DNA from: Ruditapes philippinarum
Taxonomy: Eukaryota
NCBI RefSeq assembly: GCF_026571515.1
Contig: NW_026866180.1
Span: forward strand, 186,001 to 250,000
DNA length: 64,000 bases
Direction: 5' to 3'
This document shows positions 41,023 to 57,800 of this stretch, piece after piece (position 1 is the stretch's first letter; each line of letters starts with the position of its first letter). The position numbers were made by a program.

Positions 41023-44000
41023 AAGAAGAAGAAGGAGAAGAAGAAGTAAATAATGGTAAAAAAATAAAGATAAAAGACAAATCAATTGAAAATGAGTTAA
41101 AGAACACAATAAAACACATTTTAAACTGCAGATTTACAACCCTAAAGTAACAAGTCATTCATCTTGTTCAGTGTTAAGCGACAATAATATAATCACGTGT
41201 TTCAATTTTTACACTTTTTTCTTATTTTGCTAATTACCCGCATGCAATTGTACAACCCAGTAGGCAAGTCGTGACGTATACCTTGGAATCCCGGATTCCG
41301 CGAGTCCGAGCCAAGGTCATGACACCTATTTCACCGTGATATTTATTCCCGATGCCAATTCATAAGTGTTGTGCGTGCGGTGGAGCAAACCAGTTTATTC
41401 ATGATAACAATAACTGGTTTATTAACAATATTTGCGCTGTCTTGAACAATAATGAAATATTTGATCCATAAAACTTAGAACTTCCGCTTTTTAACCACTT
41501 ATCAAATCTTTTTACGCATTTAAAAGACAAATTCGCGTAATCTATGTTTTAAAAAGTGAAATAATGGTTAAGTTTAATAAGATAAAAGCGGAAGTCAAAA
41601 GTTTGAATCTTGATGGAAACAGTTAAATGACGTAGTCTATAATATTCATCTAAATTTGCCGGGACAGTGGCTATATAAAACAATGGATAGTTTAAAATAA
41701 AACAGGTAAATATTTTACTTATATTCTTTCTTAAAATATGTTATTTTGGTTATCTTTACGTATATTATTTAAAGATCCTGTATGTTTTGTGATTGATATT
41801 GTTACTGTATGTATACCATACTTGCAAAAAATTATATATGTATATAATTATGCAAATAAATTTTTTTTCAAACATCCAAGAATATGTAAAATGTGTACTG
41901 CAAATATCTGTGCACAATAAATTTAATCAATAAATTATATGCATTCATTTCTTATTGGAAAATTTGACTTAGAATTTATAGAAAATAAATTTCTAATTAC
42001 CTCCCTTTATTAATTTCTAATTACCTCCCTTTATTTACATGAAATGTTTGATTCGGTAATATCTTTATAAATAATGCTTATTGGAACTTACAATATTGAC
42101 AAATCTTAATTTGAGCAACATATTTATGAAATAAAACCATGAAAAAATGTGTTACAGGATCTTTAACGATAATTTAGTATCTAAGCTTGATCCTGAATTC
42201 AAACCTGCTGGAAGCGTTTGCCCCTTCGGGGATTCTTATTTTCTTTTGGCTCTTGGTCAAGAGCCAGGCTAGCAAGGGTATCCGTGCAGTCTGGCCAGAC
42301 ACTTTACAGTTGGCTGACTTATTTTAAATCTCTTAAATAATAATAGACAGTACCAAACATGGAAGTTTGACAAATCCCGAAGGTTCAGTGAAAGACGGTT
42401 AACTTGTTTGAAAGAAAAGAAAAACATCGTGTTTACACTATTATTTCACTATGGTACATTTGAATTTATTTATAACTGGTTTATAATGTTTTGATACAGG
42501 CCCTTGTTACAATTAATGATTTTAACAATATATACGATATCGTATTTTCTAAACATTCCGACATAGAAAAGGTCATATGTCGACTTTTCAGCTTTAATAA
42601 TTGAGAAACCTCAGATGTTCCTCTGTTCACGGAGGTCCTAATGTATGCATGTCGGTTAATATTTGTGACTTTGTATTTTATAATTATTTCTATAATGTTA
42701 TAATTATTTCTAGCAATTAATTGTATTATTTTAAAATTGATACGTCAAATACCGCATAAATGAGAATGTTGTATCCTCGGTTTGATTTTAATGCGTTTTC
42801 TGGACAGTGCACACATTCTAACGAAATGAAAAAAGATGTACCTTAAATCATAAAAAGCAGAATCTCTTTTTCGATCGCTTGAACACATAGAAAGACTTCA
42901 GGGTGTCTAAATATGTCTAGGACATGGACACACAGACAAGGTCAATTATATTGCCATCAATTGTAAGTACATACACATTGAGAAGTATGCTTGTTATAAA
43001 TTATGTCTTTTATTCATACAGGACAACCTGAGTTTTTTAGCTTCAATGAAAAGAGGAGAAACCGTGTTAACGAATTAGTGGCGGTGGCCAAAAGGTTAAG
43101 ATGACCGCGTTTCAACTCAAGTTTAACCAGGACCAAGAATATTATGTTTTTTCCTTAAAGATATACTATGCTCAAATTTAATTTTTAAAAATATTAATAA
43201 TTGCTACACAGTCTCTTTGTATGTATAAAATAAACATGTTTGGAATTTATTTAAGGTAGAAATGATATGTTTTGAACTCTTCACACTATATGTAGTCACC
43301 ATATGAATATATAGTGTCATTAAAAAAAACCTGGCAGTTTTTTTAAGAAAAGACCAATTTTACTTAACCCGTAATAAGGAATGCAGCTTCCCATACATAG
43401 TTTATTCATTATTTTATTCAAATTAAACATATTCAGTAAGAATTTCATGGATTTCAAAGCATTTCTAAAATAAAAATATTTTACCAAAAAATGAGCATAG
43501 TATATCTTTCAATATTAGTTTTAAGAATTGAACCCAAGAGTGATACAATTGAACTTAAATAGATATCTTGAAGTAAATTGTTCGGTAACAAAGCTGACTA
43601 CCAAATATACAATGTGTTTACACGCTACGACATGCTTATGGGGCTTTATTATACAACATCAATTGTTTTCTGTTTTTAATATCATAGATAATTCCTCGCT
43701 ACTCAATTAACAAATGACGAAACAGGAGTCTCAACAGATGCCCAATATACAATGTGCCGAGGATATTACACTGTTAAGTTTGCTGCAGGTCTGTGCTCTC
43801 GCAAAATGTTGGAATGTGAATATGTCAGGACTTAGGCATAAGAAAGACATAGAGGAAAAACTGATCAAATTATGGTTGAGTCACAGGAAAGAGGAAAAGT
43901 CCGACTCTGTAAGTCAATCATGTTTTCTTAAGAATTTTAATAAAAAACGTGCTGACGCTATATCACTGTTAGATTTCAAAATGCTAAGTGATGTAGCAAA

Positions 44001-54800: not shown

Positions 54801-57800
54801 CCGGAAGACAGGCCAAGTGCAAATGAGTTTGGAAACACTTTAAAACTGTTTCTGAAGAACAACCTCTAACAAAGCATATAGACTATACAAAATTTTAAAG
54901 CTTACCATTATCTCAGCTGAAGAGATTTATGTGATTATATATATGGATAGAACTACTATCATGATAGGCTATAAAGTGTTTCAGAAAGCTAATAATGTAA
55001 TTCAAAATCAAAGCAAATTGCACAATGTTATTCATTAATCATCAACACAATTTCCTTTATCATCCAAACTATTATATTGGCATCAGTTCATGTATTAGCT
55101 TATGATGTTGAAGTATAAACTTCGCAGTTTAACAATCAGTGAACATAATAAATCAATGAGTTTTTCTACAATTACTGTTTACACATTATTTAAACGTTCA
55201 TGTGCTCAGTTATTAACCAGTAAACAACATTAGTTATATTTAAAGTTATAATTTAGTTTCTTGTCTACAGTAAGTATCTGAACTGTGCCCCTAGTTCTGT
55301 TTTAATCTAATTTTGTCCCCCCCCCTCCCCGACCTAAATTTAATATATTGATGATCCATTCGTTTAGCCATTTCACAATTCTGGCCTAAACAATGACATT
55401 ACAATAAAGAGTTCTTGAACTTGAGTTCTCAGACCACATTTGCATGATACCCATACTGCTACTTATACCACGGCAATTATTGAATAGCCATGTTGTTGGC
55501 TATAAAATACATCTGGTTCTCATTATTTTAATATGACGATTACACATAACAATAATTTCACAATGTGATATTCTTTATTTAGCAGTGAACACTGTTTTCC
55601 AGGTTCCATTTGGAAGACAATAACTTATACGAATTTAGGAATCATACCATTGGCAATGAGAGGGACATACCTTAACCGCCGTATGAACATAACCGCCGTG
55701 TGAACACATCTGCGGATGTTTCTAAATTCAAAATTTTACTATTTCACGTTTAAATGTTGAATTCTGCTTAAGCCGGTGCTAGGGGGCGTGGACGGTAACT
55801 TGCACTTTCCAGTACCGTCCATGAACAGGCTCAATCAAACCGAGCCTGCAACATTTTTAATTTTGGCGTGTTGGGCTTTCTTTAGGGATTCTGTATTTAT
55901 CTATTTTAATTTAATAATCTAATTAAGGCGCATGCCTTTAGTATAGATATAAGTTGTTATGCAGACATAAAGTCGCTAATGTAATTATTATTCGTTGCTA
56001 AATTATAATTAATTCAATTATGAATTATATATATGACTAATGAATCGATTATTTAGAGTTATACTTCCAATATTTACTTTTTCCCTAATCTTATGATTCG
56101 TTTTATTCTATTCTGTTAATTGATCAATTATATTTGGTTTATATAACAACTCAAATTCTTATGTATCTTTTCAATAATTATATTATTATTATTATTATTA
56201 TTTTATTTAATGCTTGAAATAACAAAGGAGATATCATTTTGTTTCATTTAGTCTACAGTTAAGTCAAGCTTTAAGTCAACTGGACAGCAAATGTTTATAA
56301 TCATCAATATAATCATTTTATAATACACCTATCACTCCATTGTTAAAGATCTGTTTTATAATAGTTGTTGCAAAAGTTGATATAGACTAAATGTGCGATG
56401 AAAGCTACAATTTTACGGCTAATTTCAATTTATGACATATTATAACTCAATGCTGATAATTTGTCATTCGTTTTGTATTATGTTTTATTAATAAGTGGTT
56501 TTACATGAAATACTCAACCCAAAGGTTTTTAACATATTTTGTTTGTACCCAATGATCATTTATACACTATGTTTTTACACTGTTAAAATTATATTGTTTT
56601 GTTTGCGTGTTGGTGTGTTATTCTATAGATAAATCACATTGAATCAATATATGCATTCCTCTTTTGTGTGTTACCCGTTCTTATATACAATGTTTGATCT
56701 AGAATAAGAACCAAATTTGAGAATTGTGAACTCATTTGTTGCAAGTTATCATTCAAACGGTCAAACAAATGGGATAAGAATTGGAGATGGGAGAAAAAGT
56801 AATTGGTGGATATTCGGTTTGATGGAGTCTAATCATGTATGAATGACACTATCATTCACACCCCTCGCACCGGCTTAGGACTTTACATCATTATTTAGAA
56901 TTTTTAATCATCCTCTGATAGAAGTATATGTCAAGTAATATGTGACTCTTTTGAGCCATAGACCAATATATCCTATAATTGCATGCGCTTTAATGAAGTT
57001 TTTACAAATTTGTTCTGTTACTTGCTCAATATAAGTAGTGTAATATTGAAATATGATCAATTTACATGAACAAATCAATGAAAAGTGATTTGAATTTCAA
57101 ACTTTTTGCATTTATGCTTTATTGTTATATAATTTATAAAATTATCACAATTCTGTGTTTGAGCAGATTAAAAACTTAGAAGACCGACGGTTTAAAAAAT
57201 ATATCAATAAAAGTTTTGTCGTTTTTGGTGTACTTTATATTTAGGAACATGTACTTTTCAAAACACAATATCTTATTGATTATTGGCATCCCTACTCAAA
57301 CCTTTGACTCCAACTTAAGGTAAAGTAACATAAATCAGACAACATGACGACTAGAATTGTAACTTAGGAAAATTTGTTGTAATATCATCTCTAATTTATA
57401 CTGTTGATTTATATACGACTGCGTGAAATTTCAGTTTATATACACATGAACAAAACAGTATCGCAGTACCTCAAATGTTTCATATGTCATTCGTTAACAT
57501 TCGTTAAGTTAAAAACAAAAGCTGAACAACATCCACTCAGAATAAAAAGTAGTTCCTCATTCTAGAGTATTGTTACATTTAGATAACTCATCATTAAAAT
57601 ATTTTGCAAGGTTGTTACATGTAAAAGGTTTTGAAAATTGAAAAACCATGCATTGTCATTTGAAAGAAATATTCAAAACTTATGAAAAGAAATTGTTCAT
57701 TCATAAAATCATTGTGTATACCTACGCATCAAACTTCGTATCCACGCATGCGCATGCAAGCATGAATGAATTACGACTAGACGTCGTAAATATAGAAAAA

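What the first reader, a model, noticed from the sequence alone, without database searches (positions are those of the whole stretch)
43714..54869. Copy D may have undergone gene fission: dead GTPase half, clean kinase half with its own ATG
Seen: the 5' half has a nonsense codon (47112), loss of exons 9-11, at least three stops in the exon 12 remnant and a lost donor. The five kinase exons have no stop or frameshift, keep all GT-AG sites and keep K, E, HRD, N, DVG and APE. The 5' end of exon 13 is shortened, so its acceptor (52060/52061) is out of phase with the ancestral junction, and an in-frame ATG-ATG at 52101 opens a 326-aa kinase-only ORF. Inference: the asymmetric decay suggests the kinase half is still under selection as a stand-alone kinase, the mirror image of neighbouring copy C.
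Basis: partly seen in the sequence, partly recalled or inferred. Interest (0 to 1): 0.65.

Follow-up and report, generated by a model that had tools for sequence, protein, structure and literature searches.

The report
Internally deleted clam GTPase-kinase gene copy
Copy D is a damaged member of a tandem family of GTPase-kinase genes in a clam, and its intact-looking kinase part is better explained as the remainder of a shortened fused gene than as a new stand-alone kinase.

Summary
The gene-fission reading is weak.

- **The GTPase half is not dead.** Exons 1-8 have one stop, keep all 15 splice sites, and carry only in-frame indels (3 of 3, against 0 of 7 in nearby non-coding DNA). About 8 stops are expected if neutral.
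- **Selection looks the same in both halves.** D-branch dN/dS is 0.56 and 0.52, both relaxed against intact paralogues at 0.19-0.23.
- **The lesion imbalance is chance-level.** It is 1 against 0.
- **The halves still join in frame.** A database protein named LOC132731570 of Ruditapes philippinarum (548 aa) matches copy D. It joins exon 8 plus 17 nt to the shortened exon 13.
- **The kinase is damaged.** It lost an invariant activation-loop Thr, and exon 17 evolves at the intron rate.
- **Some asymmetry is real.** D replaces 18 of 132 invariant GTPase residues but 3 of 102 kinase ones.

Most likely D is a stalk-less fused gene in decay. No transcript data were available.

The parts
43714..43908 (+). 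D exon 1. The start is the second ancestral ATG; the first ATG region is deleted in D.
46576..46705 (+). D exon 2, with a D-specific 12-bp in-frame deletion near its 3' end.
46900..47169 (+). D exon 3, holding the P-loop GEVGAGKTS. TAG at 47112-47114 is CAG in B and C. An inner donor GTGAGA at 47077 is used by database model P0010 and skips the TAG.
47557..47657 (+). D exon 4, with a 9-bp in-frame deletion. Its donor is weakened to GTGGGT. Model P0010 uses GTAACT at 47662.
47865..48005 (+). D exon 5. DTPG is kept, but 9 D-only replacements fall at otherwise invariant columns. Model P0010 starts this exon at 47884.
48234..48431 (+). D exon 6, with a 3-bp in-frame insertion at its 5' end.
49209..49324 (+). 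D exon 7.
49506..49649 (+). D exon 8. The ancestral end is 49632, phase 0. A further 17 nt run to donor GTAATT at 49650, which joins exon 13 in frame in model P0010. A D-specific 2-bp deletion at about 49640 sets that phase.
49815..49980 (+). A 166-bp filler at the deletion that removed exons 9-11. It corresponds to C 29272-31447 and has no significant match elsewhere in the window.
50004..50190 (+). Exon 12 remnant: 4 stops, two frameshifting deletions, and donor GT changed to AT.
51762..51822 (.). (TG)30 microsatellite in intron 12.
52061..52304 (+). D exon 13. A 32-bp deletion lies right after the conserved acceptor. ATG-ATG is at 52101. Contains the G-loop GNGRF and AIK.
52689..52753 (+). 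D exon 14.
53080..53201 (+). D exon 15. Model P0010 reads on into intron 15 to a TAA at 53228-53230.
53798..53967 (+). D exon 16, containing HRDMKLEN.
54450..54869 (+). D exon 17, containing DVG and APE, with stop TAA at 54867. A 12-bp deletion removes the invariant activation-loop Thr. D alone has V to A and P to L at invariant columns.

Best explanation
Copy D is one member of a birth-and-death tandem array of clam genes. These genes encode a bacterial-dynamin/mitofusin-like GTPase, a helical middle part and a C-terminal protein kinase. Translations of D match a database protein named LOC132731570 of Ruditapes philippinarum.

Early on its own branch D lost exons 9-11, and exon 12 then decayed freely. 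Exons 1-8 and 13-17 stayed open and splice-competent for most of that branch, under relaxed constraint. The simplest reason (inferred) is that they were still translated as one shortened GTPase-kinase protein. The ancestral exon 8 donor and exon 13 acceptor are both phase 0. Today a donor 17 nt into intron 8 joins the 32-bp-shortened exon 13 in frame (+17-32 = -15).

The TAG in exon 3 is a single late C-to-T change. The clean 326-codon kinase frame is therefore the tail of a fused reading frame. The locus is most likely sliding into pseudogene status rather than having split off a stand-alone kinase.
For: - **Frame kept in both halves.** Stops expected if neutral along the whole D branch are 8.1 in exons 1-8 (observed 1, P of 1 or fewer = 0.0028) and 3.6-4.05 in exons 13-17 (observed 0, P=0.017-0.026).
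- **Indels.** The D-only indels in exons 1-8 are 12, 9 and 3 bp, so 3 of 3 are multiples of three. In flanking non-coding DNA 0 of 7 are (Fisher p=0.008).
- **Splice sites.** All AG/GT of exons 1-8 and 13-17 are kept.
- **The middle is the dead part.** Exon 12 has 4 stops where 1.0-1.3 are expected, and a D-specific rate of 21/187.
- **Equal relaxed selection.** dN/dS is 0.56 and 0.52, with a bootstrap probability of 0.54 that the kinase value is the lower. Intact A kinase is 0.19 and C GTPase 0.23.
- **An in-frame link exists.** P0010 (548 aa) maps at 100% to 49507-49650 and then 52062-52307. My exon list for it sums to 1647 nt, which is 548 codons plus a stop.
- **Conversion did not simply refresh the exons.** D-specific synonymous rates (0.109 and 0.054) match intron rates (0.085 and 0.053-0.059).
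Against: - No transcript data could be consulted. I could not see what evidence lies behind the database model, which may be a frame-seeking prediction.
- That model ends in intron 15 and omits exons 16-17.
Invariant columns replaced are 18/132 against 3/102. After correcting for branch length my hand binomial gives p of about 0.06.
- Kinase exons evolve slower than their introns (p=0.017), while GTPase exons do not (p=0.45).
- The order of the 32-bp deletion, the 2-bp deletion and the TAG is unknown.
- Counts are small. Changes were assigned by parsimony, on alignments anchored on D.
- Copies exchange sequence, so gene trees differ between exons.
Confidence: 0.5

Rival explanations
1. Gene fission. 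The GTPase half is dead, and exons 13-17 are expressed from a new start site in intron 12 as a 326-aa stand-alone kinase that is under selection.
For: - The open 326-codon frame keeps K, HRD, N, DVG and APE.
- P(no stop) is 0.017-0.026 if neutral over the whole branch.
- Only 3 of 102 invariant columns are replaced, against 18 of 132 in the GTPase half.
- Exons 13-16 have dN/dS 0.29.
- The first of the two ATGs is D-specific.
- Kinase-only database models exist in two other loci: P0002, 303 aa, Ruditapes; and P0008, 250 aa, Dreissena. These are the only 2 proteins at E of 1e-40 or better among 1264 candidates.
- Neighbour C has lost the catalytic D and N.
Against: - Kinase dN/dS of 0.52 has a CI that includes 1, and exceeds intact copy A in 98% of bootstraps.
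- Exon 17 changes at the intron rate (24/420 against about 0.06), with dN/dS 0.83.
- D alone has lost the activation-loop Thr present in the 9 other sequences aligned. It has also changed the invariant V and P of the activation segment.
- GTPase exons were kept open too, which a dead half does not predict.
- No annotated protein of 245 aa or more containing D exon 17 was found.
- There is no evidence of a promoter.
Confidence: 0.15
2. D is still a working, shortened fusion gene. Alternative splice sites bypass the TAG (inner donor at 47077) and the exon 13 frameshift (donor at 49650), as in the database model.
For: - Model P0010 is a continuous 548-aa frame over exons 1-8 and 13-15.
- The inner exon 3 donor and the ancestral one share the same A|GTGAGA sequence.
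- The exon 4/5 junction of the model avoids no lesion, which hints at transcript evidence (inference).
- The frame is kept in both halves.
Against: - The model drops 31 residues of the GTPase domain and ends in intron 15, before HRD, DVG and APE. Its product could not be a catalytic kinase.
- 18 of 132 invariant GTPase columns are replaced.
- Gene predictors can choose frame-restoring sites without transcripts.
Confidence: 0.2
3. Both halves died long ago. Their exons look clean because gene conversion or unequal crossover from working neighbours keeps overwriting them.
For: - Relationships are mosaic. Exon 3 is 95% identical between C and D, while its flanking introns are 74-81%. Exon 15 groups A with D and B with C.
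- The block from intron 12 to intron 15 is 85.3% identical to C, against 78.8% upstream and 79.0% downstream (p=4e-8 and 2e-5).
Against: - D-specific synonymous rates equal intron rates in both halves, so exons were not preferentially refreshed.
- D-only in-frame indels and 18 D-only replacements persist in exons 1-8.
- No copy in the window is more than 95% identical to any D exon.
- Copies outside the window could not be checked.
Confidence: 0.1

Closest known systems
[quoted passage not shown] 2004). I saw this only as cited in a passage of PMC6442393.
   Same: Two tandem duplicates show opposite damage. C keeps the GTPase but has lost the kinase catalytic D and N. D keeps the kinase motifs but has a degraded GTPase and no middle part.
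   Different: In D the two halves can still be read as one frame. D's retained half shows relaxed constraint. Independent expression of either part is not shown.
Fission by loss-of-function mutations splitting one gene into two smaller ORFs (the model described in PMC6442393; passage read).
   Same: Stops and deletions in the middle of D leave an upstream ORF and a downstream ORF.
   Different: The upstream ORF is itself interrupted by the TAG at 47112. No transcripts are shown for either ORF.
Unprocessed pseudogenes in birth-and-death tandem gene families (general knowledge, recalled).
   Same: The array mixes intact and damaged copies. B has frameshifts in exons 15-16 and a scrambled 5' part of exon 17. 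D has a central deletion and a nonsense codon.
   Different: D's remaining exons have far fewer disabling changes than neutral decay over its private branch predicts.
Bacterial dynamin-like protein and mitofusin/Fzo1 GTPases.
   Same: The N-terminal 672 residues of family member P0001 match BDLP 2j68 (E 1.2e-6) and Fzo1 (E about 9e-4). These are the only 4 PDB sequences at E of 0.01 or better. Pfam finds Dynamin_N.
   Different: Those proteins carry no protein kinase domain. Similarity is limited to the G domain.
ROCO/LRRK-type proteins, which combine a GTPase and a kinase in one chain (recalled, not tested).
   Same: A GTPase and a kinase sit in one polypeptide.
   Different: The GTPase class differs (Roc/Ras-like against dynamin-like). 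No homology test was made here.

Membership tests
Bivalve Dynamin_N GTPase + protein kinase family (P0001 type) | Dynamin_N G domain with a P-loop | tested here: met
   Pfam Dynamin_N has E 5.1e-9 on the exon 3 piece and 0.0013 on the exon 5 piece. GEVGAGKTS and DTPG are present.
Bivalve Dynamin_N GTPase + protein kinase family (P0001 type) | C-terminal protein kinase domain | tested here: met
   Pkinase has E 3e-11 on the exon 17 piece and 2.6e-7 on the exon 16 piece. Exon 17 is 72% identical to P0001.
Bivalve Dynamin_N GTPase + protein kinase family (P0001 type) | Helical middle region (exons 9-12, P0001 residues about 433-661) | tested here: not met
   Exons 9-11 are absent and exon 12 is a remnant with 4 stops.
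Catalytically competent protein kinase | Beta-3 Lys, HRD Asp, catalytic-loop Asn, DxG and APE | tested here: met
   AIK, HRDMKLEN, DVG (family-wide in place of DFG) and APE are present in D.
Catalytically competent protein kinase | Activation segment as conserved in this family (DVGV...xTxxGSPAYMAPE) | tested here: not met
   D has DVGA, lacks the four residues that include the Thr present in the 9 other sequences, and has GSL instead of GSP.
Gene fission product (stand-alone kinase gene) | Own transcription start, and translation from ATG 52101 | not testable with these tools
   No transcript data. No annotated protein of 245 aa or more containing D exon 17 was found.
Gene fission product (stand-alone kinase gene) | Purifying selection on the retained half, but not on the lost half | tested here: inconclusive
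   dN/dS is 0.52 (CI 0.26-1.17) against 0.56 (CI 0.35-0.91). Invariant columns replaced are 3/102 against 18/132. The exon-against-intron rate test gives p=0.017 against 0.45.
Gene fission product (stand-alone kinase gene) | The halves can no longer be read as one frame | tested here: not met
   A donor at 49650 joins exon 13 in frame, as in P0010.
Pseudogene | Disabling change in the ancestral reading frame | tested here: met
   TAG at 47112, loss of exons 9-11, and a 32-bp frameshifting deletion in exon 13.
Pseudogene | Neutral evolution (dN/dS about 1, with lesions at the neutral rate) | tested here: not met
   Over the whole D branch dN/dS is about 0.5, with 1 stop in total against about 12 expected. 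A short recent neutral phase is not excluded.

The most novel reading that the evidence does not exclude
C and D may be a pair caught in domain-wise complementary degeneration. C would serve as the GTPase with a dead kinase (HRN...K). D would serve as a kinase carrier with a degenerate, stalk-less GTPase, or as a kinase-only product from ATG 52101. Together they would replace one ancestral GTPase-kinase protein, which would be a gene fission in progress through tandem duplication.
Probability: 0.15. Interest if true: 0.6.

Novelty: new member of a known kind. Interest (0 to 1): 0.3.

Why it matters
If the fission reading were right, this would be a rare animal example of a two-enzyme protein being split by duplication and complementary decay, caught midway. 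The evidence points to something more ordinary: a partly deleted copy in a fast-turning gene family whose remaining exons have only recently lost protection. The useful lessons are practical. First, an open frame downstream of lesions is weak evidence for a new gene unless branch length and frame-restoring splice options are checked. Second, this clam GTPase-kinase array has copies in several states of decay, which makes it a good system for studying domain loss.

Tried and rejected
- **B/D conversion tract in exon 17.** One search showed 88.9% identity over D 54525-54884. I rejected it because A (329/360) and C (332/360) are closer to D there than B is (320/358).
- **First stop simulation.** It used rates conditioned on sites where the other copies agree (0.112 and 0.078). 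Those overestimate the branch, so I replaced it with analytic expectations at 0.0845 and 0.053-0.059. One search timed out with no output.
- **PDB search with the whole of P0001.** It gave only generic kinases, 2171 matches with FGFR and EGFR at the top. This does not help place the family.
- **Literature.** I found nothing on this family or these loci:
  - dynamin / kinase domain / bivalve / tandem / expansion: 158 papers, none relevant among the 15 listed.
  - DSTYK + mollusc: 0 papers.
  - Dynamin_N + Pkinase: 3 unrelated papers.
  - The four LOC names: 0 papers.
- **Cryptic acceptor at 52085/52086.** It would be in frame with the ancestral exon 8 donor, but it is a disfavoured GAG acceptor. 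I did not pursue it (read).
- **Not done.**
  - No joined spliced model of D (the 326-aa frame or any multi-exon join) was built for a search or a fold. Searches were exon by exon. The only whole-model sequence used is database protein P0010, as returned.
  - The N run 20674-20805 was left alone.
  - The rest of the array outside the window stayed unchecked.
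Full report
**What the window is**

The window is AT-rich, with GC 0.27-0.37, and has one N run at 20674-20805, which I left alone. A self-search with the open pieces of the finding shows five tandem + strand copies of one gene.

Pfam finds Dynamin_N in the exon 3 and exon 5 pieces and a protein kinase domain in the exon 13-17 pieces. Three of the 9 pieces gave no hit.

I searched with exon 17 of D alone (139 aa, longer proteins only). It gave 7 proteins at E of 0.001 or better among 276 candidates, all bivalve. 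The best was P0001, a 1005-aa Mercenaria protein at 72% identity.

In P0001, Dynamin_N covers residues 132-279 and the kinase covers 715-992. Its first 672 residues match only a bacterial dynamin-like protein (E 1.2e-6) and yeast Fzo1 in the PDB, which is 4 sequences at E of 0.01 or better. The whole protein matches only generic kinases.

Mapping P0001 on the window gives a 17-coding-exon plan and these copies:

| Copy | Coordinates | State |
|---|---|---|
| A | 448-3143 | Exons 13-17 only; looks intact |
| B | 7495-18109 | Exon 9 not detected; frameshifts in exons 15 and 16; 5' part of exon 17 scrambled; DTPC instead of DTPG |
| C | 23099-38330 | All 17 exons open with AG/GT; catalytic loop HRNMKLEK instead of HRDMKLEN |
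| D | 43714-54869 | The finding |
| E | 59457-63629 | Exons 1-4 |

- TAG at 47112-47114 is a single C-to-T change of the CAG seen in B and C.
- Exons 9-11 are gone. The D/C alignment jumps over C 29272-31447, and D has 166 unrelated bp in their place.
- The exon 12 remnant has 4 stops, two frameshifting deletions and a donor changed from GT to AT.
- Exon 13 has a 32-bp deletion directly after the conserved acceptor. Phase 0 reading from that acceptor therefore gives GCT TAA.
- From ATG 52101 the frame runs 326 codons through five exons with intact AG/GT. It keeps AIK, HRD, N, DVG and APE.

**The GTPase half is not dead**

In exons 1-8 every one of the 15 splice sites is kept. The D-only indels there are 12, 9 and 3 bp. 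All three are in frame, while 0 of 7 D-only indels in the neighbouring non-coding DNA are multiples of three (Fisher p=0.008).

I took D-specific intron changes as the neutral rate: 97/1148 = 0.085 in the GTPase half, and 54/1015 to 72/1221 = 0.053-0.059 in the kinase half. I also used the observed intron mutation spectrum. Expected new stops over the whole D branch are then:

| Region | Stops expected | Stops observed | Probability |
|---|---|---|---|
| Exons 1-8 | 8.1 | 1 | P(1 or fewer) = 0.0028 |
| Exons 13-17 | 3.6-4.05 | 0 | P(0) = 0.017-0.026 |
| Exon 12 | 1.0-1.3 | 4 | P(4 or more) = 0.018-0.042 |

Both flanks were protected for most of the branch, and the truly dead part is the middle. 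My hand estimate adds frameshift and splice-site exposure from the rates. It gives about 17.5 possible lesions for exons 1-8 and 7.1 for exons 13-17. With 1 against 0 observed, the single lesion would fall in the GTPase half 71% of the time.

**Selection on the D branch**

I assigned D-only changes by parsimony, as sites where D differs from copies that agree with each other. This gives dN/dS of 0.56 (Sd 26.5, Nd 57.5; CI 0.35-0.91) in exons 1-8 and 0.52 (Sd 11, Nd 22; CI 0.26-1.17) in exons 13-17. The bootstrap probability that the kinase value is the lower one is 0.54.

| Copy and half | dN/dS |
|---|---|
| D GTPase (exons 1-8) | 0.56 |
| D kinase (exons 13-17) | 0.52 |
| D kinase, exons 13-16 | 0.29 |
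| D kinase, exon 17 | 0.83 |
| A kinase (intact) | 0.19 |
| C GTPase (intact) | 0.23 |
| B kinase (dead) | 0.51 |

D's kinase value exceeds A's in 98% of bootstraps. Exon 17 also changes at the intron rate (24/420).

D alone lacks four activation-loop residues, including a Thr present in the 9 other sequences aligned. D alone also changes the invariant V of DVGV and the invariant P of GSPAYMAPE.

- At columns invariant in all other family members, D replaces 18 of 132 in exons 1-8 and 3 of 102 in exons 13-17. For comparison, A kinase is 1/100, C kinase 6/105, B kinase 14/99 and C GTPase 2/116.
- D-specific change in kinase exons is below that in kinase introns (36/993 against 72/1221, p=0.017). 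In GTPase exons it is not (96/1270 against 97/1148, p=0.45).
- After allowing for the shorter kinase branch, my hand binomial for the invariant-column contrast gives p of about 0.06.

There is therefore a modest protein-level asymmetry. It fits a GTPase part that was carried along mainly to keep the frame open.

**Exchange between copies**

- Gene trees differ by exon. Exon 3 is 95% identical between C and D, and exon 15 groups A with D and B with C.
- Non-coding identity between C and D is 78.8% (1887/2394) upstream, 85.3% (1678/1967) from intron 12 to intron 15, and 79.0% (757/958) downstream. The tests give p=4e-8 and 2e-5.
- Part of the kinase half therefore shares a more recent ancestor with C. 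This is an old exchange, and it shortens the time available for lesions.
- D-specific synonymous rates equal intron rates, so conversion alone does not explain the open frames.

**The halves are still joined in a public model**

I searched with the GTPase region of P0001 among shorter proteins. It gave 30 proteins at E of 1e-10 or better among 1191 candidates. Two carry Ruditapes philippinarum names and match this window: P0009 (407 aa, LOC132731582 isoform X2) is copy B, and P0010 (548 aa, LOC132731570) is copy D. The window is therefore from that clam.

P0010 uses non-ancestral sites at these points:
- an inner donor of exon 3 at 47077, which skips the TAG;
- a donor 4 nt past exon 4, paired with an acceptor 19 nt into exon 5;
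- a donor 17 nt into intron 8 (49650), which joins exon 13 at 52061 in the kinase frame.

It then reads into intron 15 to a stop at 53228. My exon list for it sums to 1647 nt, which is 548 codons plus a stop.

The +17 depends on a D-only 2-bp deletion at about 49640. C has 19 nt to the same GT, and B lacks that GT. It may be a predictor's frame-seeking choice, and it omits exons 16-17.

No annotated protein of 245 aa or more containing exon 17 of A, C or D turned up. Kinase-only models exist elsewhere: P0002 in Ruditapes and P0008 in Dreissena. These are the only 2 proteins at E of 1e-40 or better among 1264 candidates.

**Reading**

The best account is an internally deleted fused gene:
1. Exons 9-12 were lost early.
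2. Both flanks were kept in one frame under relaxed selection.
3. The TAG came late.
4. The locus is now most likely decaying.

The alternatives are a stand-alone kinase, a still-working short fusion, and conversion-maintained exons. They remain possible at lower weight.

**Comparison with what is known**

The closest known concept is gene fission by duplication and complementary degeneration. It appears in a passage of PMC6442393 that cites Wang et al. 2004 (only that passage was read). I found no paper on this family or these loci.

**Limits**

- I built no joined spliced model of D for any search or fold.
- Counts are small and several tests were run.
- Assignments are by parsimony, on D-anchored alignments.
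- B, itself damaged, serves as an outgroup.
- E covers exons 1-4 only.

Noticed in passing
window 7495-18109 (copy B): Copy B matches the database model P0009 (LOC132731582 isoform X2, 407 aa, GTPase only). Its kinase half has frameshifts in exons 15 and 16 and a scrambled 5' part of exon 17. The G3 motif reads DTPC, and exon 9 was not detected by tblastn.
   Followed up: partly
window 37385-37554 (copy C exon 16): Copy C has all 17 exons open, but its catalytic loop reads HRNMKLEK instead of HRDMKLEN. It is likely a pseudokinase attached to a conserved GTPase (GTPase dN/dS 0.23, kinase 0.41).
   Followed up: partly
window 50191-53797 against C 31677-37384: Non-coding identity between C and D is raised in this block (85.3% against about 79% on either side). 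This suggests an old conversion or crossover covering intron 12 to intron 15.
   Followed up: yes
window 48648-48928, 55689-55909, 35480-35761, 18126-18318, 58824-58985, and shorter pieces: An interspersed repeat of about 200-280 bp recurs at 80-95% identity in introns and between genes. It is probably a short mobile element. I did not classify it.
   Followed up: no
window 33822-34106 and 52061-52304 (exon 13 of C and D): C and D share a derived insertion in exon 13 (NVF.ELEDD..MYKLP) and a GNGRF glycine loop that A and B lack. C has an extra 12-nt KLPE duplication. The second ATG of D's ATG-ATG is shared with C, and the first is D-only.
   Followed up: partly
window 46925-47124 against 62619-62818: The P-loop part of exon 3 is 92% identical between D and the otherwise distant copy E. 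This is either strong constraint or a short conversion tract.
   Followed up: no
window 51762-51822: A perfect (TG)30 microsatellite lies in intron 12 of D.
   Followed up: no
window 20674-20805: A run of 132 N lies between copies B and C. I left it untouched.
   Followed up: no
P0001 residues 17-55 (homologous to exon 1 of the copies): There is a weak, below-cutoff Pfam match of the N-terminal exon to the RNF34L-like third domain (E 6.6e-4, 20.1 bits against a cutoff of 27). The nature of this short N-terminal module is unknown.
   Followed up: no
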